Part shown: positions 32,492 to 63,141 of the stretch, piece after piece
How the letters are laid out: every line of letters starts with the position of its first letter
Numbering within the stretch: the stretch's first letter is position 1
Assembly: GCA_038317055.1 (NCBI GenBank)
Contig: JBBQBA010000002.1
Coordinates: 6,106-70,105 of the forward strand
DNA length: 64,000 nucleotides
Source of the DNA: Candidatus Saccharimonadales bacterium
GTDB taxonomy: Bacteria; Patescibacteriota; Saccharimonadia; Saccharimonadales; DATKHC01
Direction of reading: 5' to 3'
Translations under genes and position numbers: made by a program
Notes under the pieces: generated by a model
Told to the model about the DNA's origin: nothing
What the model saw: only the letters and a program-made list of their open reading frames with translations
Database searches by the model: none

Positions 32492-33393
32492 CGTATGAAG
32501 CCAATAGTTTGACCTAGACTAGCTACTCCGATAAGTATTGAAACTAGTGCAATATCTAGAAACGGATGCTTAACAATTAGATCTTCACTTTCGAGCGCCC
32601 ATTTTCTAATTATTAATCCATGTCTAAGTATTAGGAAACATCCTACAATACCAATTGCTAGACCAGCAATAAAAACAGTAATTTTATTATTGCTGTTTGT
32701 TATAGACTCTGCTCGTACCACCGTTTGATTACTTGGTTCAGACAATGACGCGCTAGTAAATGATTGAGGAGATTTTTGAGTCGGGATTATAGCGCCTGCT
32801 TCCTGAGTTGCACCATATAGAGCCACTACTATAGTTTGAGGTCCTTGACCCTGGAAATCAGGGGTCTTGGCAATTCCGAAGCCAACATTGTTAAAACTTT
32901 TGTTTATCATATTAGCTTTATGTCCAGCGCTGCTCACCCAAGCTCCAAATAATTGTGATGAAGATGAAAATCCATATGCAAGATTTTCACCAGCAGTCTG
33001 AAATTGGAAACCTGTAGTTTTAATAATCTGCCATGGTGTTTGGCCATTTGGACTTATAGGAGACCAATAATTTCTCACCGCCATGTCATTTGCTTTTTCC
33101 TGTGCGGCTGTTGTTAGTTGTGGATTTATCTGTAGGGGTGACAGACCTGCCGATTTACGTAGTTCATTTGTCTTATTAAAAATTGCTGGACTGGAAATAC
33201 TAGCTGAAGTAACAGGCGTCACTGGTTTATTAAGAAGTATAGATATACTAAAGGCAACTCCGATAATAACAATCACCAAAACTGGTAAATAAGGCCAATA
33301 GACCTTTAGATACTTGCCACTATGTTTGTGGTGCAGTCCATGCTGTTTTTTATATCTAGTTTGTAATTGTCCGGGTCTTTTTTTCTTTGCCAT
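32488..33393 (-). CDS. Membrane-anchored CAP/SCP (PR-1-like) domain protein
   Basis: An N-terminal TM, a CAP core (NELRKSAGLSPL, GENLAYG, HKANMIN..FNNVGFG), an S/T linker and two C-terminal TM helices. There is a 4-nt convergent overlap with dnaE. Confidence 0.75.
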   Translation of the reverse strand: MAKKKRPGQLQTRYKKQHGLHHKHSGKYLKVYWPYLPVLVIVIIGVAFSISILLNKPVTPVTSASISSPAIFNKTNELRKSAGLSPLQINPQLTTAAQEKANDMAVRNYWSPISPNGQTPWQIIKTTGFQFQTAGENLAYGFSSSSQLFGAWVSSAGHKANMINKSFNNVGFGIAKTPDFQGQGPQTIVVALYGATQEAGAIIPTQKSPQSFTSASLSEPSNQTVVRAESITNSNNKITVFIAGLAIGIVGCFLILRHGLIIRKWALESEDLIVKHPFLDIALVSILIGVASLGQTIGFIR

Positions 33394-42604: not shown

Positions 42605-42880
42605 CTAAGGGTGAAGACCTCGCATTCCATCACCTATGTAATTAAAAATTGTTTGATCGTTTTTTGATACTGCCCAGAATCCAATACCTATAAAAGCTGT
42701 TAATCCAATAGCTATCTTTGCACTTTGAATTCTTTGATGCCAATTATATGAATTTTCTGGATTAAGATGATCTAAATATAATTCGGTTTCTTCGATTAAT
42801 TTCTCTGGACCTTGACTTAAGAAGACCTGTGCATCATAAACGCCATCTTTAGAGTATCTTTTGTTCGTAGGTATATCCAT
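42605..42880 (-). CDS. Small single-pass membrane protein, hypothetical
   Basis: 91 aa with one hydrophobic helix (IAIGLTAFIGIGFWAV). Confidence 0.5.
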   Translation of the reverse strand: MDIPTNKRYSKDGVYDAQVFLSQGPEKLIEETELYLDHLNPENSYNWHQRIQSAKIAIGLTAFIGIGFWAVSKNDQTIFNYIGDGMRGLHP

Positions 42881-43060: not shown

Positions 43061-45541
43061 ATGATACCTAATTCACCAGATTTTCAAGATTTCATTAATC
43101 ATTTAACTGATAATGCACTGCAAAGCCTAAAACACGCAGATGCAATAGCTCGTGGTTTTGGAAGTGCTTATATTGGTACAGAACACTTACTTTTAGGAGT
43201 TTTAGCTCAAGAAACGTCAATGGGTGCAAAAATTTTAGAAGGTGCTGGAGTTACACTAGATCGAGCTAGATTAGCTCTTAATTTAACACCGAAGACACTT
43301 GTAATAAATCCAGCGACTAAGAATCTAAGTGAAACAGCTAAGCTCACTCTAAAGATGGCTCAAGAATTTGCACAAGATTATAACCAGGAATTTACTGGAA
43401 CAGAACATATTATTTTTAGCATTCTAAGTCAAAAAAATGCACGTGCAACCATACTACTTAGAGACATGAGTGTGGATGTAGATAATTTAACAAATGAAGT
43501 TCAACAATTTCTTGATCGTCAAAACTATGACGATTCTAGTGAATATGCAACTGAAGGTCGTAGACATACTAAACGTCAACGTAAAACTACCCTAGATTTC
43601 TATGGCGTCGATATGACACAACAAGCTCGTGCCGGTAAACTTGATCCTGTAGTTGGTCGTGAAGCTCAGATTCGTCGTGTAGTTACTATTTTGAATAGAA
43701 GAACAAAAAATAATCCAGTTTTAATTGGTGAACCTGGTGTTGGTAAAACCGCTATAGCTGAGGGTTTAGCTCAAAGAATAATCTCAGAAGATGTTCCTGA
43801 TTCATTAATAGATAAGCGAATAGTAATGCTTGATCTTGCCGGAATGATAGCTGGGACTAAATACCGTGGTGAGTTCGAAGAACGTCTTAAAAAAGTCATG
43901 AACGAACTTGAAAATGATAACAATACAATTTTATTTATTGATGAGTTACATTTAATAGTCGGCGCTGGTGCTGCAGAAGGTGCTATGGATGCTGGTAATA
44001 TTTTAAAGCCGGCTCTAGCCAGGGGTAAAATACAAGTAATCGGTGCGACAACTACTGATGAATATACTAAACATATAGAAAAAGATGCTGCGCTAGAGCG
44101 TCGTTTCCAACCAATACAAGTACCAGAAGCTACACTTCCAGAATCAATCGCCATTTTAAAAGGACTTCGCAAACATTATGAAGAATTTCACGGAGTAAAA
44201 ATAAGTGATGAAGTAATTGAAGATACAGTAAATTTTGCACACAGATATGTGAATGATCGTTACATGCCAGACAAAGCAATAGATCTATTAGATGAGACTT
44301 CAGCATATATTCGAATCGACAAAGGTAAAACGCCACCAGATGTAAGACGACTTCAGAAGGAACTAAAACTAGTAAACACAAGAATTGATGAGGCCGTAGA
44401 AGCTGAGAATTATGAAAACGCTGCTAAGTATAAAACGCGTGCTAGCCAGATTAATGACGATCTTAAAAAGCTACAAGCTGGTAATAAGGGCCGAAGTAAA
44501 CTCAGTTTAACAAGTGATGATGTAGCAGAAGTAGTAGCTAGAATGACAGGAGTTCCAGTTAAGAAAGTAATTCGATCAGAAGCTAAATACTTATTAAACC
44601 TCGAGAAAACCATCGGTAAACACGTTATAGGCCAATCTGAAGCTGTTGAATCGGTCGCAAAAGCAATTAGGCGTAATCGTGTTGGTGTTGGTAGTGGCAA
44701 AAGACCAATCGGTTCATTCGTTTTTTTGGGACCCACTGGTGTAGGAAAAACTGAACTAGCAAGAGTACTCGCTAAAGAATTCTTTGGTGGTGAATCAGCA
44801 TTAATTAAGATCGACATGAGCGAGTTCGGTGAAAGACATACTGTAGCCCGACTTGTTGGTGCACCAGCTGGTTATGTTGGATATGATGAAGGTGGACAAT
44901 TAACAGATAAAATTAGAAGACAACCCTATAGTTTAGTATTGTTTGATGAAATAGAAAAAGCTCACCCAGAAGTATTTAATATGCTACTACAAATTCTAGA
45001 AGATGGTGTTCTGACAGACGCTAAAGGAAGACAAATCGACTTTACAAATACTATAGTTATCATGACTAGTAATATCGGTGCAGATAAACTCCAAAAAGAA
45101 GCTTCTCTAGGATTTCAGGCATCGGCACCAGATGAGTTAAAAGATCTAGATAACTTACATGCAGCAAATAAAGACAAAGTTCAAGATGATCTAAAAAAGA
45201 TGATGCGACCAGAACTTCTTAATCGAATAGATAAAATTATTGTTTTCCGAGCTCTGACTAAAGCCGACATCTTAAGAATTATGGATCTTCAAATTGATGA
45301 ACTTAAACAAAGACTTATTAAACATGGCATTTCAATTAAATTAACTGAATCAGGCAAAAAGTACTTATTGGATAAAGGTTATGATGCCCATAATGGGGTT
45401 AGACCTCTTAGGCGACTTATACAAGACACAATAGAAGATGAAGTAGCTTCAAATATTTTAGATGACAAACTTCCTAAGGGCAGTATAATTCAAGTTAGTG
45501 CGCAGAAAGATAAGCTAAACTACAAAACATTAACTGAATAA
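43061..45541 (+). CDS. clpC: ATP-dependent Clp protease ATP-binding subunit ClpC
   Basis: Two Clp_N repeats, AAA-1 (GEPGVGKTA), a UVR-like linker ([10 protein letters not shown]), AAA-2 (GPTGVGKTE), and the C-terminal D2-small domain. Confidence 0.9.
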
Positions 45542-48661: not shown

Positions 48662-51600
48662 TTATGGTCCACTGACTGTGATTTGAGTTACTGGACTTGA
48701 ATCTTGATCTGAGTTGTCTATAATCTGAATATTGTATTGACCAGGAGCACCTAAATTACTTCCGCTACAACTTTGAGAGGTAGTAGTACAATATGTTGTT
48801 CCGTTCGCCTGTACAGTGTACGGTCCACTTCCTCCGGTCCAACTAATTGTTGGATTGGAACCGGTTGTTGTTGGAGAAGTCATTGATGGTGTATTGATTA
48901 TTACTGACGCAGTATTTGCAGAATATAGAACACTGTCTACAACTTGCAATTGAATTGTATGTTGACTACCTAAATTATACGGGAAAGTACATTGTCCTGT
49001 CGCCGCACTTGCAGGACTAGATCCGTTTATATCTGGTGTAAAGCTACATGTTCCAGCAACTGACTTGCCGTCAATTAACACATTTATTTGTATTGGATAT
49101 TTATCGCTTGAAAGTGGGTGTGTGCCTTGCGCGACATTAACTCCTGCAGAACAAGTCGTACCATTACAAGTTATATTGGCAGATTGAAGGCTAATTGTTG
49201 GAAGTTGATCACCACATTGGTGTAATGTATCGTTTTGAGCAGTATTAAAGGTGCTTACAGTGCTGGGTTTATTTACAAAAGTATCAATCGAAAAGATATT
49301 AGAATTAGCCGTTGCACCAGCTCCCTTTTTTGCAAGTGTTGGCGTACAACTAGTAGCAAGATTTCCTGACACGATATCAATTGTGGCAGTTTTCCCGCTT
49401 AGTGAAGGGGGATTATACCATCCAGGATATATATCTTTACTTGGACTAGGTTCAACTGAACCAACACCTACGTGACCAGTCACAACATAAGCTGGGTCAG
49501 TTTTAATATCTGCAGGGGCAACCCAGTTATTTGGTTTAAGATCTTTATGTAGATAAGTCATCATTCCTCTAGCAAGTGGTTCAGTTAAGTACTCCATCCC
49601 ACCGGCAACTAAGGCGACCTGACGAGTATGATAACCGACCCAAGTTCCTACTGCGTATTGTGTAGAGAAGCTCATCATTAATCCATCGTAATTATCATTT
49701 GTTGTACCTGTCTTTACTGCAAAATCCCATCCGTTAGTATGCTGGAACTTATATGAAGCTGGTAAATAACTAGCATTTGGATCACTCAACATATTGTCGA
49801 CAATATATGAAGCATCTGGTTTAACTACCTGTTGAGGCTTTGGTTGAGTCCAGGTAAAAACGTTCTTATTGTTAGCATCAGTAATTTTTAGAATATAAGT
49901 TTGAGGAATGTAGTTCCCAAGTCTAGCATTTGTCGCAAACCCATTGACGTGTTCATCGAGTCTTAGGTATGCTCCGTCACCAATAGCGGCTGAAGCATAA
50001 CAAGGTGCTTTTTTAGTTAGTGCGGCATCATAAAAACAATTATAGCCGCTCTTTAGACCCATTTGCTCCGACAGATTGATTACTTTTGATTCCCCAGTAA
50101 TTAACATGGCTTTTACCGCCGGAACGTTTCTAGAACCAGCTAATGCATATCTCAGAGTTAGTGGTCCGGGATACTTGAAGTCATAGTCCTCTAAGCAATT
50201 ACCGGTGCCCTTAGGTGCTGGAAGAGTCTTATCGGTACATGGATAACCCGGAAGAGGGCCTTGCGTGTCATATAGTACTGAACCTGCTCCAGCATTATTA
50301 TTGTAGTTAATTAAACTAGTGTAGTCATATAACTTATAGCTAGATCCCGGATTAACTGGAATTGTGGCGTAGTTAATCTGACCATAACTCGGATTATTAA
50401 AGTCGACTCCACCAACTAATGCAGTAACTTGTCCAGTTGGAACATTTTCCACCACCATAGCTTCTTCATCACCAGCGTAATGCTTAACATTGGGTAAGTT
50501 TTTAGCTACTAAAGACTCAGCTTCTTGTTGTTGCGTGATATTCTCAGTTGTAATTACTTTCCATCCACCACGATTTACAGTGCTAGTACCAAATTGTTGC
50601 TGAAGTTGATTCTTGGCGGCTAATACAAAATAAGGAGATTGAATACCGGAATATTTAGACTGTTGTGGTTTTACTTCTGCCACAACATTTTCAGCAAGCG
50701 CAACTTTTTTCTGTGCACCAGTAATATAACCCTGTTTTTGCATTTCATTGAGTATGTATTCTGATCGTCCAGCTAGAGCTTGAGAATTAAAATTAGGACT
50801 ATATGGCGAATAATAGTCTGGTGATTGGGGAATTGCGGCAAGAAAAGCGGCTTGAGCGAGGTTAAGTTGCGACGCATTTATATGGAAATAATCCTGAGCA
50901 GCAGTTTGAACTCCATAATCTACACCTCCGTAGGGTGCAATATTAAGATAAGCTGCAAGAATGTCTGGCTTGGAATACTCACGTTCTAATTCTGATGCAA
51001 GTACAACTTCTTTAATCTTACGTATAATCGTTCGGTTATTAGTCCAATTTTCATTCAATTTAACCAGTTGCTGTGTAATTGTCGAACCACCTTGTAGCGC
51101 ACTGCCTGAACTGGTCGTATCATGATAAGCCGATCTAAGGATTGCTTTAACATCGAAAGCACCTTCATGATAAAAGTTTTTGTCTTCAATCGAAACGGTA
51201 GCATTCTTCATAAATGGTGATATGTCAGCTCCCGCAACAGGAACACGCTTAACGGCACTGTAATCTTGCCATAACACAGTTTTACCGGTGCTATCGTAAT
51301 AAGTGATGCTTCCACCTAAGTTTTGACCATATATATTGTTAATTTGTGGAAGATCTTTTCGTAGATATGCAAAAGCCCCTACAAGCAATATAAATAAAAC
51401 TACAACACCTATACCAAATACTTTGAGCGCCATAATAGCGCCTTCACGACTGAACCAATAATGATAAAGATTTGAAGGCTTCATTCTATATAAGAAACGC
51501 TTCATGTGAGTCTTGGGCATGCCCGCTAGTCGAGCAGCTTTATGGGTTTTCCAGGTATCTTTAAACCCCTTCATCTTTTGCGACATATTTTGATTTAATT

Positions 51601-51697
51601 TAATAGTCTGCCCACTTTTGGTTGTATATGTGTTACGACTGCGCCTACCAGTACTTGTACTCTTTGAACGAGAACTAGATTGTCTTGGTTTAGCCAT
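48662..51697 (-). CDS. Class A penicillin-binding protein (PBP1A type) with long terminal extensions
   Basis: Glycosyltransferase motifs (EDKNFYHEGAFD, GGSTITQQL, KIKE), a transpeptidase domain (SSYKLYDY = SxxK, SRN, KTGT), a ~90-aa basic N-terminal tail and a ~265-aa Cys-containing C-terminal region. Confidence 0.9.
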   Translation of the reverse strand: MAKPRQSSSRSKSTSTGRRSRNTYTTKSGQTIKLNQNMSQKMKGFKDTWKTHKAARLAGMPKTHMKRFLYRMKPSNLYHYWFSREGAIMALKVFGIGVVVLFILLVGAFAYLRKDLPQINNIYGQNLGGSITYYDSTGKTVLWQDYSAVKRVPVAGADISPFMKNATVSIEDKNFYHEGAFDVKAILRSAYHDTTSSGSALQGGSTITQQLVKLNENWTNNRTIIRKIKEVVLASELEREYSKPDILAAYLNIAPYGGVDYGVQTAAQDYFHINASQLNLAQAAFLAAIPQSPDYYSPYSPNFNSQALAGRSEYILNEMQKQGYITGAQKKVALAENVVAEVKPQQSKYSGIQSPYFVLAAKNQLQQQFGTSTVNRGGWKVITTENITQQQEAESLVAKNLPNVKHYAGDEEAMVVENVPTGQVTALVGGVDFNNPSYGQINYATIPVNPGSSYKLYDYTSLINYNNNAGAGSVLYDTQGPLPGYPCTDKTLPAPKGTGNCLEDYDFKYPGPLTLRYALAGSRNVPAVKAMLITGESKVINLSEQMGLKSGYNCFYDAALTKKAPCYASAAIGDGAYLRLDEHVNGFATNARLGNYIPQTYILKITDANNKNVFTWTQPKPQQVVKPDASYIVDNMLSDPNASYLPASYKFQHTNGWDFAVKTGTTNDNYDGLMMSFSTQYAVGTWVGYHTRQVALVAGGMEYLTEPLARGMMTYLHKDLKPNNWVAPADIKTDPAYVVTGHVGVGSVEPSPSKDIYPGWYNPPSLSGKTATIDIVSGNLATSCTPTLAKKGAGATANSNIFSIDTFVNKPSTVSTFNTAQNDTLHQCGDQLPTISLQSANITCNGTTCSAGVNVAQGTHPLSSDKYPIQINVLIDGKSVAGTCSFTPDINGSSPASAATGQCTFPYNLGSQHTIQLQVVDSVLYSANTASVIINTPSMTSPTTTGSNPTISWTGGSGPYTVQANGTTYCTTTSQSCSGSNLGAPGQYNIQIIDNSDQDSSPVTQITVSGP

Positions 51698-51832
51698 TAA
51701 TAGTTAAACACCTCTCGAATAAACGTATTCATTATAGTAAGTAATTATAGCAAAAACTTTCCTATTTCGCTTCAATAATCATGCCTTATAAATGTAAACT
51801 TATAAGAAAAGTTACGTTATACTGTCTAATAT

Positions 51833-53056
51833 ATGAGTAATATGACCCTTTCAGAAGAGTTAACTTGGCGTGGTTTTGTAAACCAAACTACTTACCCTAA
51901 GTTAGAAGATATTAACGTTGACAATTCAAAGTTCTATCACGGCTATGATGCTTCAGCTGATTCACTAACTATAGGAAATCTAGCTGCAGTAATGATGGAT
52001 AAATGCTTCATAAGACATGGACGAAATGGTGTCATATTAGCTGGAGGAGCAACAAGTTTAATTGGTGATCCAGGCGGCAAAGATAGTGAACGACCATTAC
52101 AGTCAGAAGAAACCATTCGTAAGAACGTAGCTAGTGTTAATTCTCAACTCAAAAGTCTTTTAGGCGAACAATTAGAATTTGTTAATAACCTAGATTGGTT
52201 TAGTGAGATGAACGTACTTACATTCTTAAGGGAGGTCGGTAAATACTTTTCCGTTACTCCATTAATCCAACGTGATTATATTTCAAAAAGAATTGGTGAG
52301 GGTGGTAGCGGCATAAGTTTTACCGAGCTTGGTTATACGCTATTACAGGGATACGATTACCTCGAGTTATTTGAAAAGTATAATGTCAGATTACAATTGT
52401 CGGGCAGTGACCAATGGGGTAATTCACTTTCAGGCGTGGAGTTGGTTAAAAAAGCCAAGAATCAAACAGTAAATGTTTTCACTTGTCCACTTATAGTTAA
52501 TAAGTCAACTGGTAAGAAATTTGGCAAAAGTGAATCAGGGGCAGTATGGCTAGATGTTAATAAGACTCCTGTTTTAGATTTCTACCAATTTTGGATTAAG
52601 CTAGATGATGCAGGAGTAGAGGGCTATTTAAAAGTTTTTACTGAACTAGATAAAGACTCAATTGACGAAGTAATAGTTAAACATAAATCAAACCCATCAG
52701 GAAGACACGCTCAAACTGTCCTTGCTGATGAAGTTACAAAACTAGTTCACGGTGAAGTTGAGGTCGAAAAAGCCCGTCAAGCAACTAAAGCACTAGTTAC
52801 GGGTGGAATGGATCACGATGGACTATCTCGGATAACAACAAAACTACCTATAACAATTATTGAGCTTTTAGTAAATTCCGAACTAGTATCATCAAAAAGT
52901 GAAGCACGCCGTTTGATCGAAAGCGGTGGTATATATGTGAATGGAACAGCATATTCAAAAGATGAGATTGAAGTTGAAGATTTTAAAGACAGCAAATTAA
53001 TATTAAGACGTGGAAAAGCAATTAATAATTCAGTGGTAATTGAGCTTGAAGCGTAA
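51833..53056 (+). CDS. tyrS: Tyrosine--tRNA ligase with TIGN in place of HIGH
   Basis: It aligns by eye along its full length to bacterial TyrRS (WRGFVNQTT, GGATSLIGDPGGK, GSDQWGN, KFGKSESG as the KMSKS loop, C-terminal S4 domain). The HIGH position reads TIGN (nt 51968-51979). Confidence 0.9.
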   Translation: MSNMTLSEELTWRGFVNQTTYPKLEDINVDNSKFYHGYDASADSLTIGNLAAVMMDKCFIRHGRNGVILAGGATSLIGDPGGKDSERPLQSEETIRKNVASVNSQLKSLLGEQLEFVNNLDWFSEMNVLTFLREVGKYFSVTPLIQRDYISKRIGEGGSGISFTELGYTLLQGYDYLELFEKYNVRLQLSGSDQWGNSLSGVELVKKAKNQTVNVFTCPLIVNKSTGKKFGKSESGAVWLDVNKTPVLDFYQFWIKLDDAGVEGYLKVFTELDKDSIDEVIVKHKSNPSGRHAQTVLADEVTKLVHGEVEVEKARQATKALVTGGMDHDGLSRITTKLPITIIELLVNSELVSSKSEARRLIESGGIYVNGTAYSKDEIEVEDFKDSKLILRRGKAINNSVVIELEA

Positions 53057-53080
53057 TCTGATATACTACTTTTTGTATCT

Positions 53081-53854
53081 ATGACAAAAACTAAAACATT
53101 AACCCGTAAAGCTGACCAATATAACGACCCAAACCATAATTATCTAGATTACTGGAAGGGTAGAGAATACGAAAATGCAGCTGAGGAAATTGCTATCAAG
53201 CGTTTTTTAAAAGGAAAACATTTTAAGCATGCAGTCGATGTAGGTGGTGGCTATGGACGACTATGTATTCTTTACGAGAATTATGCCGATAAAGTTACAT
53301 TAGCAGAACCCTCCGACCAACAATTGGATCTTGCTGCCGACTATTTAAAGAATAATCCTGAAATCGAGCGTAAAAAGCTTCAAGCCAACAATCTACCTTT
53401 TGAAGATGGTTCTATTGACCTACTGTCTATGATTAGAGTTATGCATCATTTACCAGATCCTATGCCAGAGTTTCGTGAATTTGCCAGGGTTTTATCGGAT
53501 GATGGATACTTCATATTAGAGATTGCAAATTATACTCATTTTGAAAATCGTATTAAACACATGTTACAGATGAAAAAATTTCCTGATGAACCAGTAGATA
53601 TTCGATCACGTAAAAATAAACGTGAAGAAGAAATTGCTTTCGTTAACCATAACCCCAGAACAGTCCTAAAGCAACTAGCTCATGTTAATCTCAAAGTTGA
53701 TAAAATTCTATCAGTATCTAATTTGCGTAGCCCTGGACTGAAAAAAATTATTCCTCGCTCGTTAATGCTTAAAGCGGAACAAGTTATGCAACCAACTTTA
53801 GCAAAATCTTACTTCGGCCCAAGCGTCTTTTTTCTTATAAAAAAAGCACATTAA
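53081..53854 (+). CDS. Class I SAM-dependent methyltransferase
   Basis: Motif I VDVGGGYGRL. Target unknown. Confidence 0.75.
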   Translation: MTKTKTLTRKADQYNDPNHNYLDYWKGREYENAAEEIAIKRFLKGKHFKHAVDVGGGYGRLCILYENYADKVTLAEPSDQQLDLAADYLKNNPEIERKKLQANNLPFEDGSIDLLSMIRVMHHLPDPMPEFREFARVLSDDGYFILEIANYTHFENRIKHMLQMKKFPDEPVDIRSRKNKREEEIAFVNHNPRTVLKQLAHVNLKVDKILSVSNLRSPGLKKIIPRSLMLKAEQVMQPTLAKSYFGPSVFFLIKKAH

Positions 53855-54036
53855 ACAAATTTTAGAATTTAAAACTTTGTAATCAAATAATTTTATTCAA
53901 ACGCAATATTCAGAGAACAAATAATTGATAACTTATGCATGAGTATTTTAATATTTTATCTCTAAAACAAACATTGCATTCAAGCATGTGCGTGTTAACA
54001 TGAAATAGTGAAGTAGTCAAAAATAAAAGGAAAACT

Positions 54037-55263
54037 ATGAAAAAAATTAAAATTATTCTAGGTAATGATAGAGGATTCGGCCATCACTACATCCTAGGAG
54101 TGATTGTCATCGCAGTATTAGCATTAGCTGGTGTCCGAGTTTATCAAGCTTCTCATGCTTCCCCAACTTCTGTACATAAATGTCTGGGTGATCCATCAGT
54201 ACAAATTGAAGCTCTACCGGCCGGTGGAACCTGGAACGGTAATGGAAAATGTTATAAATTAGCAAATGGAAATGGTATAGCAGTAAAAACTTCTGGAATT
54301 ACAATTGAAAACGCTACCATACTTGACCCTATAAGATTTAGAAAAAATGTTTGCGGTGATTGTTTACATATATCTCCGATTATCTCGGTATCCTATACAG
54401 CTAGTAACGTTACGCTCAGTAACTTAACTTTAGAAGGTAGTCGAAATATTACAGGATACCGTGGACGTCCATGGGTTGGTGAGGAAGGTATTAAATTAAA
54501 TGGTCCATATAACACGACGATTAACAATGTTATTACGGAAAATACTTTCGGAGATGGGCTAGAAGTTGGACTTGCTCCACACAAGAGCGTGACTACTAAT
54601 TTAATCGTAAATGGGCTTACAGTTTATAAAACTGGACGAGACGCAGTTACTCTAGCAGCAGCTGATCATGCAACTTTTAATAACATAAATCTAGTTGGTC
54701 CTGTTCCCTTTGAGGCTTGGGGATTTCAGAGCGACATACCATATGGTGTAAGTAATGTGACTGTCAATAATGCTACCGGGCCTGCCGGCGGTGTTTACAT
54801 GGACGAATTACTCCAAGGACCGGTTACTTTTAATAATGCTAATTTACCTGGTGTACTAATTACAGGCAGTGCAGCAGCAAGTTCAGGACAAACTGTTACT
54901 TTTAACGGTGGCAAAATAAATGAAAGATGCGATTCTCATCGAACTTCAGATATCGAAATGGATAGTAAAGTGTTAGTCAAGGCGAGCAGCCAGGTTGTTA
55001 AACCTGCAACGCTATCTTTAAATAATCTAACATTGGATCGTCAAACTTGTAACGTTGGCAAGTCGCCTAAATCTCCCGCATGGTTTGTTCAGCAAGGAGG
55101 TACTATAAACCTTTCAAACGTAAAATACGTCGCTCCTATCGGTGGGGTTGGTGACAATCAATCACATATTAAATTATCGAATGTCGTGCAAATCCCTTAC
55201 ACTTCTGGGGTACAAGGAACATACACCACACTAGACACTCCAGCAGCGCTAGACGGTAACTAA
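54037..55263 (+). CDS. Membrane-anchored/secreted right-handed parallel beta-helix repeat protein
   Basis: An N-terminal TM or signal anchor (YILGVIVIAVLALAGV), then repeated ~22-25-aa units with N[VI]T[LV].N patterns (ASNVTLSNLTLEG, NTTINNVITEN, TTNLIVNGLTVY, ATFNNINLVG, VSNVTVNNATG). These are typical of pectate-lyase-like or tailspike-like folds. Confidence 0.6.
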   Translation: MKKIKIILGNDRGFGHHYILGVIVIAVLALAGVRVYQASHASPTSVHKCLGDPSVQIEALPAGGTWNGNGKCYKLANGNGIAVKTSGITIENATILDPIRFRKNVCGDCLHISPIISVSYTASNVTLSNLTLEGSRNITGYRGRPWVGEEGIKLNGPYNTTINNVITENTFGDGLEVGLAPHKSVTTNLIVNGLTVYKTGRDAVTLAAADHATFNNINLVGPVPFEAWGFQSDIPYGVSNVTVNNATGPAGGVYMDELLQGPVTFNNANLPGVLITGSAAASSGQTVTFNGGKINERCDSHRTSDIEMDSKVLVKASSQVVKPATLSLNNLTLDRQTCNVGKSPKSPAWFVQQGGTINLSNVKYVAPIGGVGDNQSHIKLSNVVQIPYTSGVQGTYTTLDTPAALDGN

Positions 55264-55305
55264 ATAATTATAAAGTGTTTTCGAAAATACTTATGTAAAG
55301 TAATT

Positions 55306-55319
55306 ACATGTCAGTTTGG
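55306..55319. repeat. Left terminal inverted repeat
   Basis: ACATGTCAGTTTGG, the exact reverse complement of 55951-55964. Confidence 0.8.
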
Positions 55320-55332
55320 GTGAAGGCCAAAG

Positions 55333-55387
55333 GCCGGGGGTGAGGTTGTGTGAACTCATAGGAGTACGCAAAACCTCACCACCCGGC
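55333..55387 (-). other. GC-rich 15-bp hairpin with one bulged base, downstream of the cassette ORF
   Basis: GCCGGGGGTGAGGTT (55333-55347) pairs with AACCTCACC-A-CCCGGC (55372-55387) around a 24-nt loop. It starts 21 nt after the stop of the minus-strand ORF and has no clear U-tract. Confidence 0.5.
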
Positions 55388-55407
55388 GAACTTGGCTAGC
55401 CGAGTAC

Positions 55408-55836
55408 TTAGGCCGAATATGTATCTATGAAGGGCTTCTGATAAGCAGGATGCCTCGGTGGTCCCGTTAGAATGGTGACCTTGACGGTCCATTCACATGA
55501 TCCTTGTGGATGTTGGACACCGCAGGTATCTTGCTTATTAGGTAGCAGTGCATACAGATGAACTGAACCGAATTCCTTTTGAAACATATGGCTACCACGA
55601 CCACCTTGATTGCTAGTCCACGAAATGTGTACCTGCCACCATGATCCAGAAGAAGCCTTTGGCAATGTGACAATTGCTTCTTCGGACTGGTATTGGGTAC
55701 TGAAAGTGAACTGAACTGGTTGTGTGGCGGAGGGTTGAATCGAAGCAGCTTGAGCAGGATTTGCGTTTGACAGTAAGACGAACGACACAATTGATATTGT
55801 GGCAACAGACAGCAGTAATTTACGCATTATAATCAT
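55408..55836 (-). CDS. Small secreted protein, hypothetical (142 aa)
   Basis: AAAGGAGAG Shine-Dalgarno 3 nt before the ATG. The signal peptide ends ...LLSNANPAQA-AS. The mature part is rich in W, H and Q, with two Cys (CGVQHPQGSC). No recognisable family. Confidence 0.6.
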   Translation of the reverse strand: MIIMRKLLLSVATISIVSFVLLSNANPAQAASIQPSATQPVQFTFSTQYQSEEAIVTLPKASSGSWWQVHISWTSNQGGRGSHMFQKEFGSVHLYALLPNKQDTCGVQHPQGSCEWTVKVTILTGPPRHPAYQKPFIDTYSA

Positions 55837-55950
55837 GATCTCTCCTTTGTTGGTTTCAGATACTTGATATATTCATGCACCTACATTCCACTTCCTCTAG
55901 GATGCGGACAGCGAACTTTTATTTTGAAAGCTCATTGACCGCACCCTAAT

Positions 55951-55964
55951 CCAAACTGACATGT
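55951..55964. repeat. Right terminal inverted repeat
   Basis: CCAAACTGACATGT, the exact reverse complement of 55306-55319. Confidence 0.8.
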
Positions 55965-56278
55965 TAAGGTACCACCTGAGAAAATCTCTCAGAAGTAGTA
56001 ATATAAGTATAACATAAAAAAGGTAAAAAATCAAGAATAACTGTAACTTATATAGTGTCAGGTGAGCTTTGCTATAAATCAGTTGAAACGAAATTAGCCA
56101 GGTATAGAATTTAATTTATTGTAAACATCGTGGGTAATATTTAATATATTAAGGTGTTTTATTCTTTCATTTATTAATTCAGACACCAATTCAAAAGCTA
56201 ATCATTTTAATTATATCTGGTACAAATAATGTAACATGCTGTGATCTACTCGAGATTTTTGATTAATCTTTATTTGAT

Positions 56279-56767
56279 TTAATCTCTAAACACTAATTTC
56301 GTAAGAAATCCTGGCTTTCGATTAATTGGAAGTACAAGGATAGAATTAATATGTGCAAAATTGGCACCTATCGAATCATTGATAATTCTATCTCCGACCA
56401 TAGCAATGTGAGTAGGTTCAGTATCGGCAAATTTAATAATTTTTCTATAGTAACTACTTAGTGGTTTAAATGAAAATATAGTTGGGCGGATGACTTGGGT
56501 ATTGAAATGTTTGGTAATAGAATCGAGGTTTCGTCTCGAATTACTTCCAATAATGATTCTTATACCTGATTTATCTATTTTATTTAAGTGAATAATATAA
56601 TCTTTAGATAAAGTTGATTTTCGTTTAGGTACTAGTGTTTCGTCTATATCAAAAACAATGTGTGTTATACCAAGTTTAAATAGATCACTTGGTTTAATTT
56701 CTAAAACTGATGAAACGACGTAATTTGGATAAAATATCGATGATTTGTTAATTTTTCTCATGCTCAC
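56279..56767 (-). CDS. YqeG-family HAD-IIIA phosphatase
   Basis: IVFDIDETLVP (DxDxT), GSNS, MVGDRIINDS. Confidence 0.8.
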   Translation of the reverse strand: MSMRKINKSSIFYPNYVVSSVLEIKPSDLFKLGITHIVFDIDETLVPKRKSTLSKDYIIHLNKIDKSGIRIIIGSNSRRNLDSITKHFNTQVIRPTIFSFKPLSSYYRKIIKFADTEPTHIAMVGDRIINDSIGANFAHINSILVLPINRKPGFLTKLVFRD

Positions 56768-56882
56768 CTAATAATAACCTAGACAATAATATATGTTAAC
56801 GGAACTAAAATTATGAAGTTAAGAATTGTAAATCAATGATTACGGCCACTACATACAGATTAGTCTATACTTATGAATACAA

Positions 56883-60311: not shown

Positions 60312-60397
60312 GGGCGAGTGGTGGAATTGGTAGACACGCATGCCTTAGGAGCATGTGCCGCAAGGTGTGAAGGTTCAAGTCCTTTCTCGCCCACCAA
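60312..60397 (+). tRNA. tRNA-Leu (anticodon UAG), CCA encoded
   Basis: The acceptor stem pairs GGGCGAG with CTCGCCC. The anticodon stem pairs CATGC with GCATG around the loop CTTAGGA (anticodon 60346-60348). There is a long variable arm, and the T-arm is GAAGG-TTCAAGT-CCTTT. The discriminator is A, followed by CCA. Confidence 0.9.
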
Positions 60398-60531: not shown

Positions 60532-63141
60532 ATGGTTGCACAGAGACTACCCACAACTGGCGGTGATAAAGGTAATTGGGGTAACATACTCAATGGCTTT
60601 CTTCTGCAATCTCATAATGCCGACGGAACTCTTCAGACTGGAGCAATAAGCCAAGCTAGTGGAATAGTTAAATCTCAAGTAGGATCATCTAATGGAGTAG
60701 CCGGACTTAATGCTTCGGGTACAGTTCCAACAACACAACTAGGTGCCGGTGCTGGTAGTACATCAAACTATTTAAGAGGCGATGGTACATGGGTAGTACC
60801 AAGTGGTGCTGGATCTACTGGAGCAACTGGTCCCTTAGGAGCAACTGGAGCAACTGGTGCAGGAATAACAGGAGCAACCGGACCTACAGGAATAGCTGGA
60901 TCTACTGGAGCAACTGGTCCCTTAGGAGCTACTGGAGCTCAAGGTACAACGGGCGCTACCGGCGCTGGAACAACCGGAGCTACAGGACCGAATGGATCTG
61001 CGGGTTCGACGGGTGCTACCGGCGCAGGAACTACTGGTGCTACTGGTTCAGTTGGTGCTACTGGGCCAGGAGGCGGTGCTACAGGGCCTATAGGATTTAC
61101 CGGAGCAACAGGTCCAATCGGAAATGATGGCGCTACAGGAGCTGGTACTACAGGAGCTACCGGACCTTCAGGAATAGCTGGTACAACTGGATCCACCGGT
61201 CCAGCTGGAGCTGGAACAACCGGAGCAACTGGGCCAAATGGTTCTACAGGAGCTACTGGACCTTCAGGAATAGCTGGTACAACTGGATCCACCGGTCCAG
61301 CTGGAGCTGGAACAACTGGAGCAACTGGACCAATAGGTGCAACTGGTCCTATCGGGTCTTCGGGGCCCACTGGAGCAACTGGTCCAGTAGACATTAAACT
61401 AAGTAACACTATTGGTGTATTAGGAGATTCGATTTCATCTAACTGTTGTTACCAATCAGGTGCATTAATGACCAGTTATGGTTATCTTACATGGGCACTT
61501 TGTATGGCGGGTGGGCATGCTCCAACTCTAAAATTTTTAGATGGAATTGCAGGCACTAGTAGTCTCAATTCAAACTGGCCGCAAAGAGTTTCAAGTATGA
61601 TCACAGCAAATCCTACAACTTGTATTGTGGAAATCGGTACTAACGATTGCGTGAATTCTCAACTTAGCGGAACTGTATCAACTGCAGTAGACCAAATTAT
61701 TAATGGTACAGGTCTAACCACTGGTTGTGGTATAAACCAAACAATCACTTCGCTCACAGCTGCTGGAATACAGGTAATTCTTAATACCATTCCTCCTCGG
61801 AATGCTCTCACAAACTCCCAACAACAAATCCATGACCAAGTAAATGCGTGGATACGTCAGCAAGATACGAGACCTGGTATTACAATATGCGACGCTGCAG
61901 CAGTACTTACTGATGTATCGATAGGAGTTTATACTAATTACAAACAGACATATGTTGGTACAACCACAGGCTTATCGGCTGGAACTATAACGACAATACC
62001 ACTAACTGGAACGACACCAAATACGATTGCTAAAGGGAAGATTATTATGGTGGGAAGTGGTGGGACTGCGCAGTATTTTTCTACATCTTCCTCAACTGCT
62101 GCAGCTGCTTCGTCTATTTCAGTTACCTCAGCGACTGCTTCAGTTGTCTCATCTGGCACTATTGTCACCGTCTCAGAATATACAAATGATGGTATACATC
62201 CGAATAACGCAGGTGCACAAGCGTGGGGAACTGCGCTCGCAACTATTTTCACTCAATTGTTTCCATCTGGCTCACTTGCAAGTACTTACGCTGATTCATT
62301 CAACCTCCTACCACAGACGACAGCATCCTGGGTACAGTTCGGCGGTACTGTACTTAATCCTGGAACAGGTGGATTTCCAAATGGTGGACTACCCGCAACA
62401 GCCCCACTTTGGTTGGCAGCACCTGCTGGTGTAAGTCTCGCATATATTCCCAGAACGGACGGAGTTCCTGGTAGTGCAATGAGAATTACAGTCGGATCGG
62501 GGAAATCTGGTACACTTGCGTTGTATTCAAAGTCACGAACTGTGGGTTCTGATTATACCGGTAAATCACTTACCACATTCCTTGAAATACTTTCAGTTAC
62601 AGGTACTGACGCTAACTTTAATGGTACTACCCCTGAAGGTCTTACTAGCTATATTAATGTTCAAGTTCCCGATTACTCTCAGGGCTATACGGGACTTGTT
62701 TTAGGTAACAATGATCCATACGTAATGCCTTCTTCCCCGATTATTATTCAGTCTCCACTTTATCTTCCGTCCGCTATTGCTTCTACATCAGTTGCCTATA
62801 CTACTGCTGGAGGACCATACACCACAATCTCAATAGGTGCATTTAAAACGTCTGTACCTCTCACAAACGGTCAAGTCCTCCTTCTTAGTAATGTTGGTAA
62901 TAACGCAGGTACTTATGTGACCGTGAACGGAAACCAATCAGCAGGTATAAGTACGATTAATGTTCAATCATTCACACCACTAATAAATATCGCCAGTGGT
63001 ATAACACTCTCCTATACAACACCACAGAAAATACCAGCGTGCGACTCATATGCAACGCCGACAGACGTATATATTACTATTAGCTTTAATGGGGGCGGTG
63101 TATACACATTTGGTAGAGTAGGAATTATACCTGTACAGTAA
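60532..63141 (+). CDS. Tail-fibre-like surface protein: conserved N-terminal module, interrupted collagen-like Gly-X-Y region, SGNH/GDSL hydrolase domain, beta-rich C-terminal domain
   Basis: The N-terminus has [11 protein letters not shown]...HNADGTL and [12 protein letters not shown], as in phage tail-fibre/minor-tail proteins. Residues 94-286 are GXT/GPX triplets. The SGNH blocks are IGVLGDSIS (I), EIGTNDC (III) and [13 protein letters not shown] (V). About 300 C-terminal residues have no recognisable match. Confidence 0.8.
60805..61389 (+). repeat. Coding triplet repeat (Gly-X-Y) with an internal 96-nt duplication
   Basis: GGNGCNACNGGN periodicity. 61150-61232 and 61246-61328 are 81/83 identical (period 96 nt, or 32 aa). 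The repeat opens spurious ORFs in other frames and on the minus strand. Confidence 0.85.

What the first reader, a model, noticed from the sequence alone, without database searches (positions are those of the whole stretch)
55306..55964. 659-bp GC-shifted single-gene cassette bounded by perfect 14-bp terminal inverted repeats
ACATGTCAGTTTGG at 55306-55319 and its exact reverse complement at 55951-55964 bracket the whole segment between the beta-helix gene and the AT-rich spacer before yqeG. Read as 13-bp repeats, both ends are flanked by TTA (55304-55306 and 55964-55966), a possible 3-bp target duplication. That is weak evidence in AT-rich DNA.

Inside are one Shine-Dalgarno-preceded ORF for a 142-aa signal-peptide protein and a strong GC-rich hairpin, and nothing else. 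My hand counts give about 43-52% GC for four consecutive 60-nt lines inside, against about 33% in the first line of the adjacent yqeG gene and about 42% in a clpC line. The compositional step coincides with the repeats.

This is the architecture of a MITE-like mobile insertion cassette carrying a passenger gene, with no transposase of its own. The higher GC hints at foreign origin. Actinobacterial hosts of Saccharibacteria are GC-rich, but that link is pure speculation.

One caveat: a single 14-bp inverted repeat within 1 kb has a chance expectation of about 0.2 per 64-kb window. The coincidence with the gene and composition boundaries matters more than the repeat alone.
Basis: partly seen in the sequence, partly recalled or inferred. 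Interest (0 to 1): 0.6.

Follow-up and report, generated by a model that had tools for sequence, protein, structure and literature searches.

The report
Foreign secreted-protein gene in Saccharibacteria islet
A small gene for a secreted protein, whose only known relatives sit in high-GC, probably actinomycete DNA, has been laterally inserted into a variable spot of a Saccharibacteria genome; the inverted repeats around it are real, but nothing shows that it is a jumping cassette.

Summary
A perfect 14-bp inverted repeat (55306-55319 / 55951-55964) brackets one 142-aa signal-peptide ORF and a very stable hairpin. The segment is compositionally foreign: GC3 is 0.40 against 0.23±0.03 for the other 47 genes (z 5.5), and a CAI-like index gives z -5.3.

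The protein family is an orphan. Its only two relatives (58-61% identity) lie on 53-60% GC contigs whose IS256 and PadR genes best match Actinomycetota. RecG hits place the window in Saccharimonadia.

Seven relatives (RecG 51-85% identical) have the methyltransferase gene directly followed by recG. So about 3 kb of the window (53855-56863) is a lineage-specific islet, and the 659-bp segment is one piece of it.

The mobile-cassette reading has no positive support. I found no second copy of the ends in the window, in 1 Mb of related loci, in JGI metagenome contigs or in IMG/VR. There is no transposase in 64 kb, and the homologues carry no such repeats.

The repeat is still unlikely to be chance for this gene's flanks (0 of 3000 shuffles). 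In predicted RNA folds it closes a structure with long hairpins at both ends.

Verdict: an old, partly ameliorated lateral gene acquisition, plausibly host-derived. The role of the repeat is unresolved.

The parts
53855..56863 (.). Lineage-specific islet of about 3 kb between the methyltransferase stop codon and the conserved recG leader. It holds the beta-helix gene, the 142-aa gene and a YqeG-like phosphatase gene.
   Evidence: Relatives L010-L014, L017 and L097 have the methyltransferase gene 16-60 nt upstream of recG. The junction sequences align up to CATTAA on the left and from TCTATACTT...ATGG on the right. The islet has no terminal repeats and no second copy in the window.
54037..55263 (+). 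408-aa protein with an N-terminal membrane anchor or signal sequence and a weak right-handed beta-helix signature. It converges on the 142-aa gene.
   Evidence: ORF. Pfam Beta_helix E 0.07, below threshold. No relatives in JGI metagenome contigs. GC3 0.257, CAI-like z -1.6.
55273..55311 (+). Two short AT-rich palindromes after the beta-helix stop codon. The second overlaps the first bases of the left repeat arm.
   Evidence: (I23).
55306..55319 (+). Left arm of the perfect 14-bp inverted repeat, ACATGTCAGTTTGG.
55327..55395 (.). Hairpin B: a stem of about 23 bp with a tetraloop (core 55333-55387), GC-rich, with no U-tract on either strand. It lies between the two convergent genes.
   Evidence: -42.7 kcal/mol for 70 nt, the most stable local fold in the window (next -28.3; mean -9.3±4.1). 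z -6.7 on both strands. The consensus terminator scan found no canonical terminator spanning this stem.
55408..55836 (-). 142-aa ORF: a Sec-type signal peptide (probable cleavage after AQA, residues 28-30) followed by an all-beta mature domain of about 112 aa with two invariant cysteines (C105, C114).
   Evidence: Only two homologues, P0002 and P0003. dN/dS 0.13-0.16 against the homologues. Model pLDDT 66, pTM 0.60, seven strands. Weak Ig/FN3-like fold matches, E 0.025 or worse. Weak profile match to FN3 repeats, E 2.8e-4.
55840..55848 (-). Shine-Dalgarno sequence AAAGGAGAG, 3 nt before the ATG. DNA homology with the high-GC homologues starts about here.
55897..55949 (-). Hairpin A in the 5' leader: about 21 bp including G-U pairs, more stable on the sense strand. 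It lies 1 nt from the right repeat arm.
   Evidence: Leader 55837-55975 folds at -44.7 kcal/mol (z -5.1) on the minus strand, against -28.6 (z -2.9) on the plus strand. It ranks 8th among local folds in the window.
55951..55964 (+). Right arm of the inverted repeat, CCAAACTGACATGT.
55965..56278 (.). Spacer between the yqeG-like gene and the segment, mostly AT-rich (about 23-30% GC beyond 56000). It carries the promoter-like sites for the 142-aa gene, outside the repeat-bounded segment.
   Evidence: Composition. Promoter-like TTGATT-17-TATACT with an upstream TG at 56034-56006 on the minus strand, and two weaker sites.
56279..56767 (-). YqeG-like HAD-IIIA phosphatase gene, part of the islet and compositionally host-like.
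   Evidence: TIGR01668 E 1e-18, below cut-off; Pfam HAD families. Nearest relatives are 42-54% identical and the four loci examined are not syntenic. GC3 0.196, CAI-like z +0.7.

Best explanation
The 659-bp segment is a laterally acquired single-gene module, not a demonstrable transposable cassette.

**Origin.** A Saccharimonadia (Saccharibacteria) genome picked up a gene for a small Sec-secreted beta-sandwich protein. The donor was a much GC-richer lineage, most likely an actinomycete, the known host group of cultivated Saccharibacteria. The gene now sits inside a 3-kb lineage-specific islet that was inserted exactly between the methyltransferase stop codon and the recG leader. A close relative carries different DNA at that junction. 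The route of entry is an inference: uptake of foreign DNA, since Saccharibacteria are naturally competent (PMC10633639), followed by illegitimate integration.

**After acquisition.** The gene has stayed intact under purifying selection. It has drifted part of the way towards host AT-richness.

**How it probably works (inferred).**
- It is transcribed from a host-like AT-rich promoter that lies outside the repeat.
- It is translated from a strong Shine-Dalgarno sequence, exported, and cleaved after AQA.
- The two exceptional hairpins and the 14-bp repeat are best read as the structured ends of this transcription unit. These are a 5' stem-loop, a 3' stem-loop acting as a U-tract-less bidirectional terminator or 3' barrier between the convergent genes, and possibly a closing helix.

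**Status of the claims.** Shown: foreign composition, absence from relatives, high-GC homologues, purifying selection, exceptional fold stability. Inferred: donor identity, entry route, transcript ends, RNA role of the repeat, protein function.
For: **Composition.** GC3 z 5.5 and CAI-like z -5.3. This is the only such outlier among 48 genes.

**Homologues.**
- Only P0002 and P0003 were found among 5.8 billion clusters and 1.84 billion representatives. They lie on 53-60% GC contigs.
- There the gene's GC3 (0.59) is within its neighbours' range (0.58-0.86).
- Its upstream neighbours are conserved across contigs.

**Donor taxon.** The listed IS256 matches and all PadR matches are Actinomycetota.

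**Recipient taxon.** The named closest RecG relatives are Saccharimonadia or Saccharibacteria.

**Islet.**
- Seven relatives have the methyltransferase gene next to recG, and the junctions are defined to the base.
- L015 has unrelated DNA at the same place.

**Not an assembly chimera.** An independent Logan contig is 100% identical over 50408-56513. The gene is only 58-61% identical to the high-GC copies.

**Selection and amelioration.**
- dN/dS is 0.13-0.16.
- At 73 conserved degenerate codons, the window has A/T where both homologues have G/C 23 times. The reverse occurs 5 times.

**Structure.**
- Hairpin B is the most stable local fold in 64 kb.
- The leader hairpin is specific to the sense strand.
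- The MFE and centroid folds of the whole unit both contain the 14-bp helix.
- Perfect stems of 9 bp or more are almost absent elsewhere in the window.
- The homologues' flanks are unstructured.

**Precedent.** Transfers of 0.5-5.7 kb between CPR and other bacteria are reported (PMC10031880).
Against: **The repeat is hard to dismiss as chance.** 0 of 3000 flank shuffles reached 14 bp, and about 0.002 such gene-bracketing repeats are expected per window. Terminal inverted repeats with a matching 3-bp flank (TTA/TTA) are what a transposase would leave.

**The RNA-helix reading is untested.**
- No transcript ends are known.
- The left arm lies downstream of hairpin B. It would be absent from the mRNA if hairpin B terminates transcription.
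- Folded alone, the 5' leader pairs the right arm locally instead.
- No related sequences exist for a covariation test.

**The donor assignment is indirect.**
- It rests on an IS and one regulator gene on a neighbouring stretch of one contig.
- The homologues are only about 60% identical, so the true donor is unsampled.
- Co-occurrence is shown for relatives of the window, not for the window's own sample.

**Fold assignment of the protein is weak** (pLDDT 66; Foldseek E 0.025 or worse).
Confidence: 0.6

Rival explanations
1. Mobile insertion cassette (MIC) or MITE with a passenger gene. The 14-bp repeats are terminal inverted repeats recognised in trans by a transposase encoded elsewhere. The unit transposed into the beta-helix/yqeG intergenic region and duplicated TTA.
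For: - Perfect 14-bp terminal repeats (18 of 21 matching when extended), with both arms intergenic and exactly one gene bracketed.
- This is improbable by chance for these flanks (combined).
- TTA on both sides if the repeat is read as 13 bp.
- No transposase inside, a MITE-like size of 659 bp, strong fold potential, foreign composition, and a position in a variable islet.
- MICs with passenger genes are known (PMC5444012, PMC4337579).
Against: - The unit is single-copy. No related end occurs in the window beyond chance, in 1.08 Mb of related loci, in JGI metagenome contigs or in IMG/VR.
- No transposase or integrase was found in 64 kb.
- The homologues in high-GC contigs lack the repeats, and the adjacent IS256 has unrelated ends.
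- The promoter-like sites lie outside the unit.
- Synonymous sites have drifted heavily towards A/T. I infer that an unselected relic pair of terminal repeats should not still be perfect over 28 nt.
- A 3-bp flank match has a chance of about 2-5% and allows several readings.
Confidence: 0.2
2. The inverted repeat is a coincidence. The gene is foreign, but the repeat has no function at the DNA or RNA level.
For: - 36% of random 64-kb sequences contain a perfect inverted repeat of 14 bp or more within 1 kb. The window has a second one at 42842/43346 with one arm inside clpC.
- The finding was picked post hoc from a scan of unknown size.
- GC change-points do not pin the boundary to the repeats. 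The best right boundary is 55980, not 55964.
Against: - Position matters. About 0.002 gene-bracketing cases are expected per window, and 0 of 3000 flank shuffles reached 14 bp.
- The arms sit 1 nt and about 7 nt from the two strongest hairpins of the locus.
Confidence: 0.15
3. Split palindrome. A native 14-bp hairpin between the convergent beta-helix and yqeG genes was broken at its tip, and foreign DNA was captured there. The two halves were left as flanking repeats.
For: The architecture would be identical to what is seen, and the site lies between convergent genes where terminator hairpins are expected.
Against: - Native perfect stems are almost absent in this genome. Only three stems of 9-10 bp occur in 64 kb, and none is longer.
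- There is no A/T tract around the arms.
- No intact copy of such a hairpin occurs in any fetched locus.
Confidence: 0.04
4. Artefact or native gene: either a chimeric assembly joining high-GC DNA to a Saccharibacteria contig, or an ordinary resident gene with unusual amino-acid composition.
For: High-GC organisms carrying homologues occur in the same kind of samples.
Against: - Both flanks are contiguous Saccharimonadia DNA in two assemblies that are identical over 6.1 kb.
- The gene is only 58-61% identical to the high-GC copies and has intermediate GC3.
- The anomaly is at synonymous sites, not only at GC1/GC2.
- The whole islet is missing in seven relatives.
Confidence: 0.01

Closest known systems
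Small lateral gene transfers between CPR/Saccharibacteria and other bacteria (84 events of 518-5,730 bp in activated-sludge CPR genomes, PMC10031880; arginine deiminase system acquired by mammal-associated Saccharibacteria, PMC8764695)
   Same: - A sub-kilobase to few-kilobase foreign piece in a reduced episymbiont genome.
- It is recognised by composition and by homologues in another phylum.
- Actinobacteria are the documented host group (PMC8406219, PMC10633639).
   Different: - The gene belongs to an orphan family with three known sequences.
- It encodes a secreted protein of unknown function rather than a metabolic or informational gene.
- It is about 60% identical to its nearest relatives, so the transfer is old or the donor is unsampled.
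- It carries a terminal inverted repeat and two unusually long hairpins.
Mobile insertion cassettes and MITEs with passenger genes (MIC231 of Bacillus cereus, from my own knowledge; qnrS2 cassette in Aeromonas, PMC5444012; Tn3-type MICs in Xanthomonas, PMC4337579)
   Same: Short terminal inverted repeats, no transposase, one passenger gene, small size, and a possible short target duplication.
   Different: No second copy, no cognate IS, no related ends anywhere searched, and no empty site. The repeats are only 14 bp, and their family cannot be assigned.
U-tract-less ('I-shaped') GC-rich hairpin terminators described in Actinobacteria, and bidirectional terminators between convergent genes (from my own knowledge)
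   Same: Hairpin B is a long GC-rich stem without a U tail, lying between two convergent genes. It is atypical for the AT-rich recipient and typical in style for a high-GC donor.
   Different: Its stem of about 23 bp is far longer than usual terminators. Termination has not been shown. The sampled homologues have no equivalent hairpin.
Immunoglobulin/fibronectin-III-like secreted beta-sandwich domains
   Same: - The mature part is all-beta with seven strands.
- The best fold matches are Ig-like domains of GH2 enzymes, CsgC, FN3 and cytokine-receptor domains.
- There is a weak profile match to FN3 repeats.
   Different: All matches are below significance (E 0.025 or worse; TM 0.5 or less). No Pfam, NCBIfam or PDB family matches. 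The conserved CxxxxxxxxC pair and the C-terminal DTYSA motif have no known counterpart.

Membership tests
Mobile insertion cassette / MITE | Terminal inverted repeats at both ends | tested here: met
   14 bp perfect, 18 of 21 matching when extended.
Mobile insertion cassette / MITE | Target-site duplication flanking the repeats | tested here: inconclusive
   TTA/TTA appears only if the repeat is read as 13 bp. A 3-bp match in AT-rich DNA has roughly a 2-5% chance, by my estimate from base composition.
Mobile insertion cassette / MITE | No transposase inside the element | tested here: met
   The only credible ORF is the 142-aa secreted protein.
Mobile insertion cassette / MITE | Several copies, or the same ends around other cargo, in the genome or in relatives | tested here: not met
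   No further copy in the 64-kb window, in 1.08 Mb of loci, in JGI metagenome contigs or in IMG/VR. The rest of the genome was not available.
Mobile insertion cassette / MITE | A cognate autonomous IS with matching ends that could mobilise it | tested here: inconclusive
   No transposase among the ORFs of 150 aa or more in the window. The IS256 beside the L002 homologue has unrelated ends. ISfinder and the rest of the genome could not be searched.
Mobile insertion cassette / MITE | Empty site in a related genome or strain | not testable with these tools
   No relative carries the beta-helix or yqeG neighbours. Only the whole 3-kb islet is seen to be absent.
Laterally acquired gene / genomic islet | Composition and codon usage deviate from the resident genes | tested here: met
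   GC3 z 5.5 and CAI-like z -5.3 for the 142-aa gene. The other two islet genes are host-like.
Laterally acquired gene / genomic islet | Absent from the syntenic position in related genomes | tested here: met
   The methyltransferase gene is directly followed by recG in L010-L014, L017 and L097.
Laterally acquired gene / genomic islet | Closest homologues in a distant taxon | tested here: met
   The only homologues are on 53-60% GC contigs with Actinomycetota-like IS256 and PadR genes. With three sequences no tree test is possible.
Integron gene cassette | attC site 3' of a promoterless ORF, with RYYYAAC ... GTTRRRY core sites in that order | tested here: not met
   Read by eye. The flanks of hairpin B read GTTCGCC ... 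CCCAAAC on the coding strand. That is the wrong order, and the two are not complementary to each other.
Integron gene cassette | IntI tyrosine recombinase and attI nearby | tested here: not met
   No recombinase among the ORFs of 150 aa or more in the window.
Canonical intrinsic terminator (for hairpin B) | GC-rich stem followed by a U-tract | tested here: not met
   The stem is present, but there is no run of T after it on either strand.
Known structured RNA families (Rfam), tRNA, tmRNA | Match to a covariance model | tested here: not met
   Only tRNA-Leu at 60312 in the window. In 55200-56300 the only match is a chance-level mir-981 hit, 18 bits against a gathering score of 51.

The most novel reading that the evidence does not exclude
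The unit is a genuine transposase-less cassette bounded by terminal inverted repeats. On this reading it carried a host (actinomycete) extracellular-protein gene into its episymbiont's genome. As far as I know, that would make it the first mobile insertion cassette described in a CPR bacterium, and a physical vehicle for host-to-symbiont gene flow. The captured secreted beta-sandwich protein would then act at the host-symbiont interface.
Probability: 0.15. Interest if true: 0.65.

Novelty: new member of a known kind. Interest (0 to 1): 0.4.

Why it matters
Saccharibacteria live attached to actinomycete hosts, and for environmental lineages the host is usually unknown. This secreted-protein gene has its only relatives in actinomycete-like contigs from the same kinds of samples. 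That makes it a concrete, testable lead on two questions. One is host identity, which amounts to finding the donor. The other is which proteins act at the cell-cell interface.

The locus also marks the methyltransferase/recG junction as a place where these reduced genomes accept new DNA. If the inverted repeat proves to be a transposon end, it would show a mechanism for such gene flow. If it proves to be an RNA closing helix, it would be an example of how a foreign gene is packaged for expression in an AT-rich genome. As it stands, this is one more lateral acquisition, of moderate interest.

Tried and rejected
**Searches that found nothing**
- YqeG against genome contigs and the beta-helix protein against metagenome contigs: no relatives, so no empty site could be found that way.
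- YqeG homologues: 42-54% identical, and the four loci examined sit in unrelated contexts (carotenoid genes, histidine kinases), so they are useless for synteny.
- Exact-protein look-ups of the 142-aa and beta-helix proteins: they returned only the same Logan contig.
- Sample accessions in the paper library: no hits.
- The 142-aa protein against plasmids and phages and in Pfam and NCBIfam: no match.
- Repeat-end and hairpin patterns in IMG/VR and the repeat-end pattern in JGI contigs: no match.

**Identities considered and rejected**
- RNA gene (RNase P, tmRNA, riboswitch, intron): Rfam and ARAGORN were negative.
- Retron (a1/a2 repeats plus a long msd hairpin): no reverse transcriptase, the arms are 631 nt apart, and a protein gene lies between them.
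- Integron cassette: the core sites are in the wrong order and there is no integrase.
- IS200/IS605-type element with subterminal hairpins: the two hairpins are unrelated in sequence and there is no TnpA.
- IS256 of the homologue contig as mobiliser: its ends are unrelated.

**Structure work**
- The mature-domain model was better (pLDDT 66) but gave only sub-threshold fold matches.

**Islet ends**
- No terminal repeats were found for the 3-kb islet.
Full report
**1. What is in the sequence**

With three mismatches it extends to 21 nt.
- TTA lies at 55304-55306 and at 55964-55966.
- Between the arms is one credible ORF, 55408-55836 on the minus strand. It encodes 142 aa, is preceded by AAAGGAGAG, and has a textbook Sec signal peptide (MIIMRK, a 17-residue hydrophobic core, NANPAQA).
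- There are two long hairpins, not one.
  - Hairpin B (core 55333-55387) lies between the ORF and the convergent beta-helix gene.
  - Hairpin A (55897-55949, sense strand) lies in the 5' leader, 1 nt from the right arm.

**2. Composition**

- The segment is 46.3% GC in a 36.4% GC window.
- The shift is at synonymous sites. GC3 is 0.399 against 0.229±0.031 for 47 other genes (z 5.5).
- A CAI-like index built on the window's genes gives 0.552 against 0.710±0.030 (z -5.3).
- The two neighbouring islet genes are not outliers: z -1.6 for the beta-helix gene and +0.7 for the yqeG-like gene.
- Maximum-likelihood change-points fall at 55318 and 55980. They are close to the repeats but poorly resolved.

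**3. The protein and its relatives**

- A word-indexed search of 5.8 billion protein clusters found two relatives. P0002 is 61% identical and P0003 is 58% identical.
- An exhaustive profile search of 1.84 billion representatives added only a marginal match (E 2.8e-4) to FN3 repeats of a eukaryotic receptor phosphatase.
- Seventy-seven of 142 alignment columns are invariant. They include two cysteines and the C-terminal DTYSA.
- Pfam, NCBIfam, plasmid and phage searches were empty.
- The mature domain models as a seven-stranded all-beta protein (pLDDT 66, pTM 0.60).
- The best PDB matches are Ig/FN3-like domains, all below significance.
- My reading is a small exported beta-sandwich protein with a probable disulfide and unknown function. 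It plausibly binds something on a cell surface. That last step is inference.

**4. Who carries it**

- RecG of the window is 57-62% identical to proteins named Candidatus Saccharimonadia, Saccharimonadales or Saccharibacteria. It has unnamed relatives at 65-87%.
- The best named genome loci are Saccharimonadales and Saccharibacteria MAGs.
- The homologues sit on contigs of 53-60% GC.
- On L002 the gene's GC3 (0.59) lies within its neighbours' range.
- Its two upstream genes are conserved across contigs L002, L003 and L005.
- The adjacent IS256 transposase has Actinomycetota plasmids as all 15 best matches listed, at 65-69% identity.
- A PadR gene on L002 matches only Streptomyces, Kitasatospora and Nonomuraea at the DNA level.
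- So the gene looks at home in a probable actinomycete and foreign in the Saccharibacterium.
- L002 and L003 come from the same samples (JGI 3300059835, SRR35831303) as L010 and L011, which are Saccharimonadia relatives of the window. This is circumstantial. It fits the host-symbiont pairing known for cultivated Saccharibacteria (PMC10633639, PMC8406219).

**5. The wider locus: a 3-kb islet**

- In relatives with RecG 72-75% identical (L010-L013), 78% (L097), 85% (L014) and 51% (L017), the 257-aa methyltransferase gene is followed by recG after 16-60 nt.
- In the window the two genes are 3,028 bp apart.
- Alignment of the junctions places the insertion right after the methyltransferase stop codon (53854). 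It ends before the conserved recG leader TCTATACTT...ATGG (from 56864).
- The inserted 3,009 bp hold the beta-helix gene, the 142-aa gene, a largely AT-rich spacer and a YqeG-like phosphatase gene.
- The islet has no terminal repeats and no second copy in the window.
- The closest relative (L015, RecG 87%) has an unrelated 86-aa membrane ORF upstream of recG, so the junction is a repeated site of gene gain.

**6. Is the repeat more than chance?** There are two answers.

- Anywhere in the window: no. Markov simulations give 0.46 perfect repeats of 14 bp or more within 1 kb per 64 kb. 36% of simulations have at least one, and the window holds a second one with an arm inside clpC.
- At this position: probably yes.
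  - A randomly placed pair brackets a whole gene with both arms intergenic 0.36% of the time. That gives about 0.002 expected per window.
  - Shuffling the gene's own two flanks gave 14 bp or more in 0 of 3000 trials and 13 bp or more in 0.1%.
- I therefore treat the repeat as probably non-random but of unresolved meaning.

**7. Tests of mobility.** All were negative or impossible.

- No related end occurs in the window beyond chance.
- None occurs in 1.08 Mb of fetched loci.
- The consensus of the two ends has no match in 241 million JGI contigs or in IMG/VR.
- No ORF of 150 aa or more in the window is a transposase or recombinase. Their matches are housekeeping or ordinary families, and the remaining ones are identified through the syntenic loci.
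- DNA similarity to the homologues runs only from about 25 nt upstream of the ATG to the stop codon.
- The homologues' flanks have no comparable repeats and no unusual structure (z between -1.2 and +1.0).
- No relative carries the islet, so a cassette-level empty site cannot be examined.

**8. Structure**

- Hairpin B is the most stable 70-nt fold in the whole window: -42.7 kcal/mol against -28.3 for the next, with a mean of -9.3±4.1.
- Hairpin A ranks eighth. It is much more stable on the sense strand (z -5.1 against -2.9), which points to the RNA level.
- Perfect stems of 9 bp or more are otherwise nearly absent from this genome segment.
- Folding the whole unit (55296-55975, minus strand) puts the 14-bp helix in both the MFE and the centroid structure. 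Hairpins A and B lie directly next to it. The z-score is about -10 from only 20 shuffles.
- Neither hairpin has a U-tract.
- Promoter-like sites for the gene lie in the AT-rich spacer outside the right arm. The best is TTGATT-17-TATACT with an upstream TG at 56034-56006.

**9. Age and selection**

- Against the homologues dN/dS is 0.13-0.16, with dS saturated at 1.5-2.2. The gene is under purifying selection, and the sampled homologues are not the donor.
- At 73 conserved degenerate codons the window has A/T where both homologues have G/C 23 times. The reverse occurs 5 times. This directional drift fits amelioration towards the AT-rich host.
- I infer that, with that much synonymous change, 28 unselected bases would be unlikely to remain perfectly complementary. 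This favours either selection on pairing or a more recent transfer from an unsampled donor. It argues against a decaying relic of a transposon end.

**10. Assembly**

- An independent Logan contig from SRR19962015 is identical to the window over 50408-56513.
- The gene differs by about 40% from the high-GC copies, so a chimera is excluded for practical purposes.

**11. Most likely account**

- A Saccharimonadia lineage acquired the gene after it split from relatives with 85% RecG identity. The source was a high-GC bacterium, probably an actinomycete of the kind it lives on.
- The gene landed in an islet at the methyltransferase/recG junction and has been kept under selection.
- I infer expression from a host-type promoter, with export by Sec.
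- The long hairpins bound the transcript. I interpret hairpin B as a U-tract-less bidirectional terminator or 3' barrier, in the style reported for Actinobacteria (from my own knowledge).
- The repeat may close the mRNA ends. It may also be a transposon end or a coincidence. I put these readings at roughly 0.35, 0.2 and 0.3 respectively, with the remainder for other explanations such as a split native hairpin.
- These are probabilities for the repeat alone. The confidences in the explanation sections rate whole accounts, so they differ. In particular, the lateral-acquisition account stands whether or not the repeat has a function.

**12. Comparison and verdict**

- The locus works like the small lateral transfers already described for CPR bacteria (PMC10031880, PMC8764695).
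- It resembles a mobile insertion cassette in architecture (PMC5444012, PMC4337579). It fails the multi-copy criterion in everything that could be searched, and the cognate-IS test was inconclusive.
- It is a new member of a known kind. Interest is moderate because it offers a testable host link and an orphan secreted protein.

Noticed in passing
window 53855-56863; L015:1-425: The methyltransferase/recG junction is a repeated site of gene gain. The window has a 3-kb, three-gene islet there. The closest relative (RecG 87%) has an unrelated 86-aa membrane ORF. Seven other relatives have nothing.
   Followed up: yes
window 56279-56767 (-): The YqeG-like HAD phosphatase in the islet has nearest relatives only 42-54% identical. 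The four loci examined are non-syntenic 39-46% GC contigs with carotenoid genes or histidine kinases. Its own composition is host-like. It may be an older acquisition.
   Followed up: partly
window 60532-63141 (+): An 869-aa protein with collagen triple-helix repeats and a GDSL lipase domain. Its 46% GC comes from GC2 of 0.62, and its GC3 is normal. The gene holds several of the most stable local folds in the window.
   Followed up: no
window 42842-42855 / 43346-43359: A second perfect 14-bp inverted repeat within 1 kb (GCCATCTTTAGAGT). The left arm lies upstream of clpC and the right arm inside it. It looks like chance.
   Followed up: no
L010:3664-4638: A relative carries a beta-lactamase-family gene between the TRAM-domain gene and the penicillin-binding-protein gene. 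It is absent from the window and from L013, another single-gene difference between these genomes.
   Followed up: no
L002:1-5700: In the high-GC contig the homologue sits in a run of small signal-peptide ORFs of unknown function (145-263 aa) next to an IS256. Its two upstream genes are conserved in L003 and in part in L005.
   Followed up: partly
window 55171-55240 (-): A strong local fold (-26.2 kcal/mol in 70 nt) lies on the antisense strand inside the 3' end of the beta-helix gene. Several of the window's most stable folds cluster in 55170-55950.
   Followed up: no
window 32488-33393 (-): A CAP (cysteine-rich secretory protein) domain protein, another secreted protein in the window.
   Followed up: no
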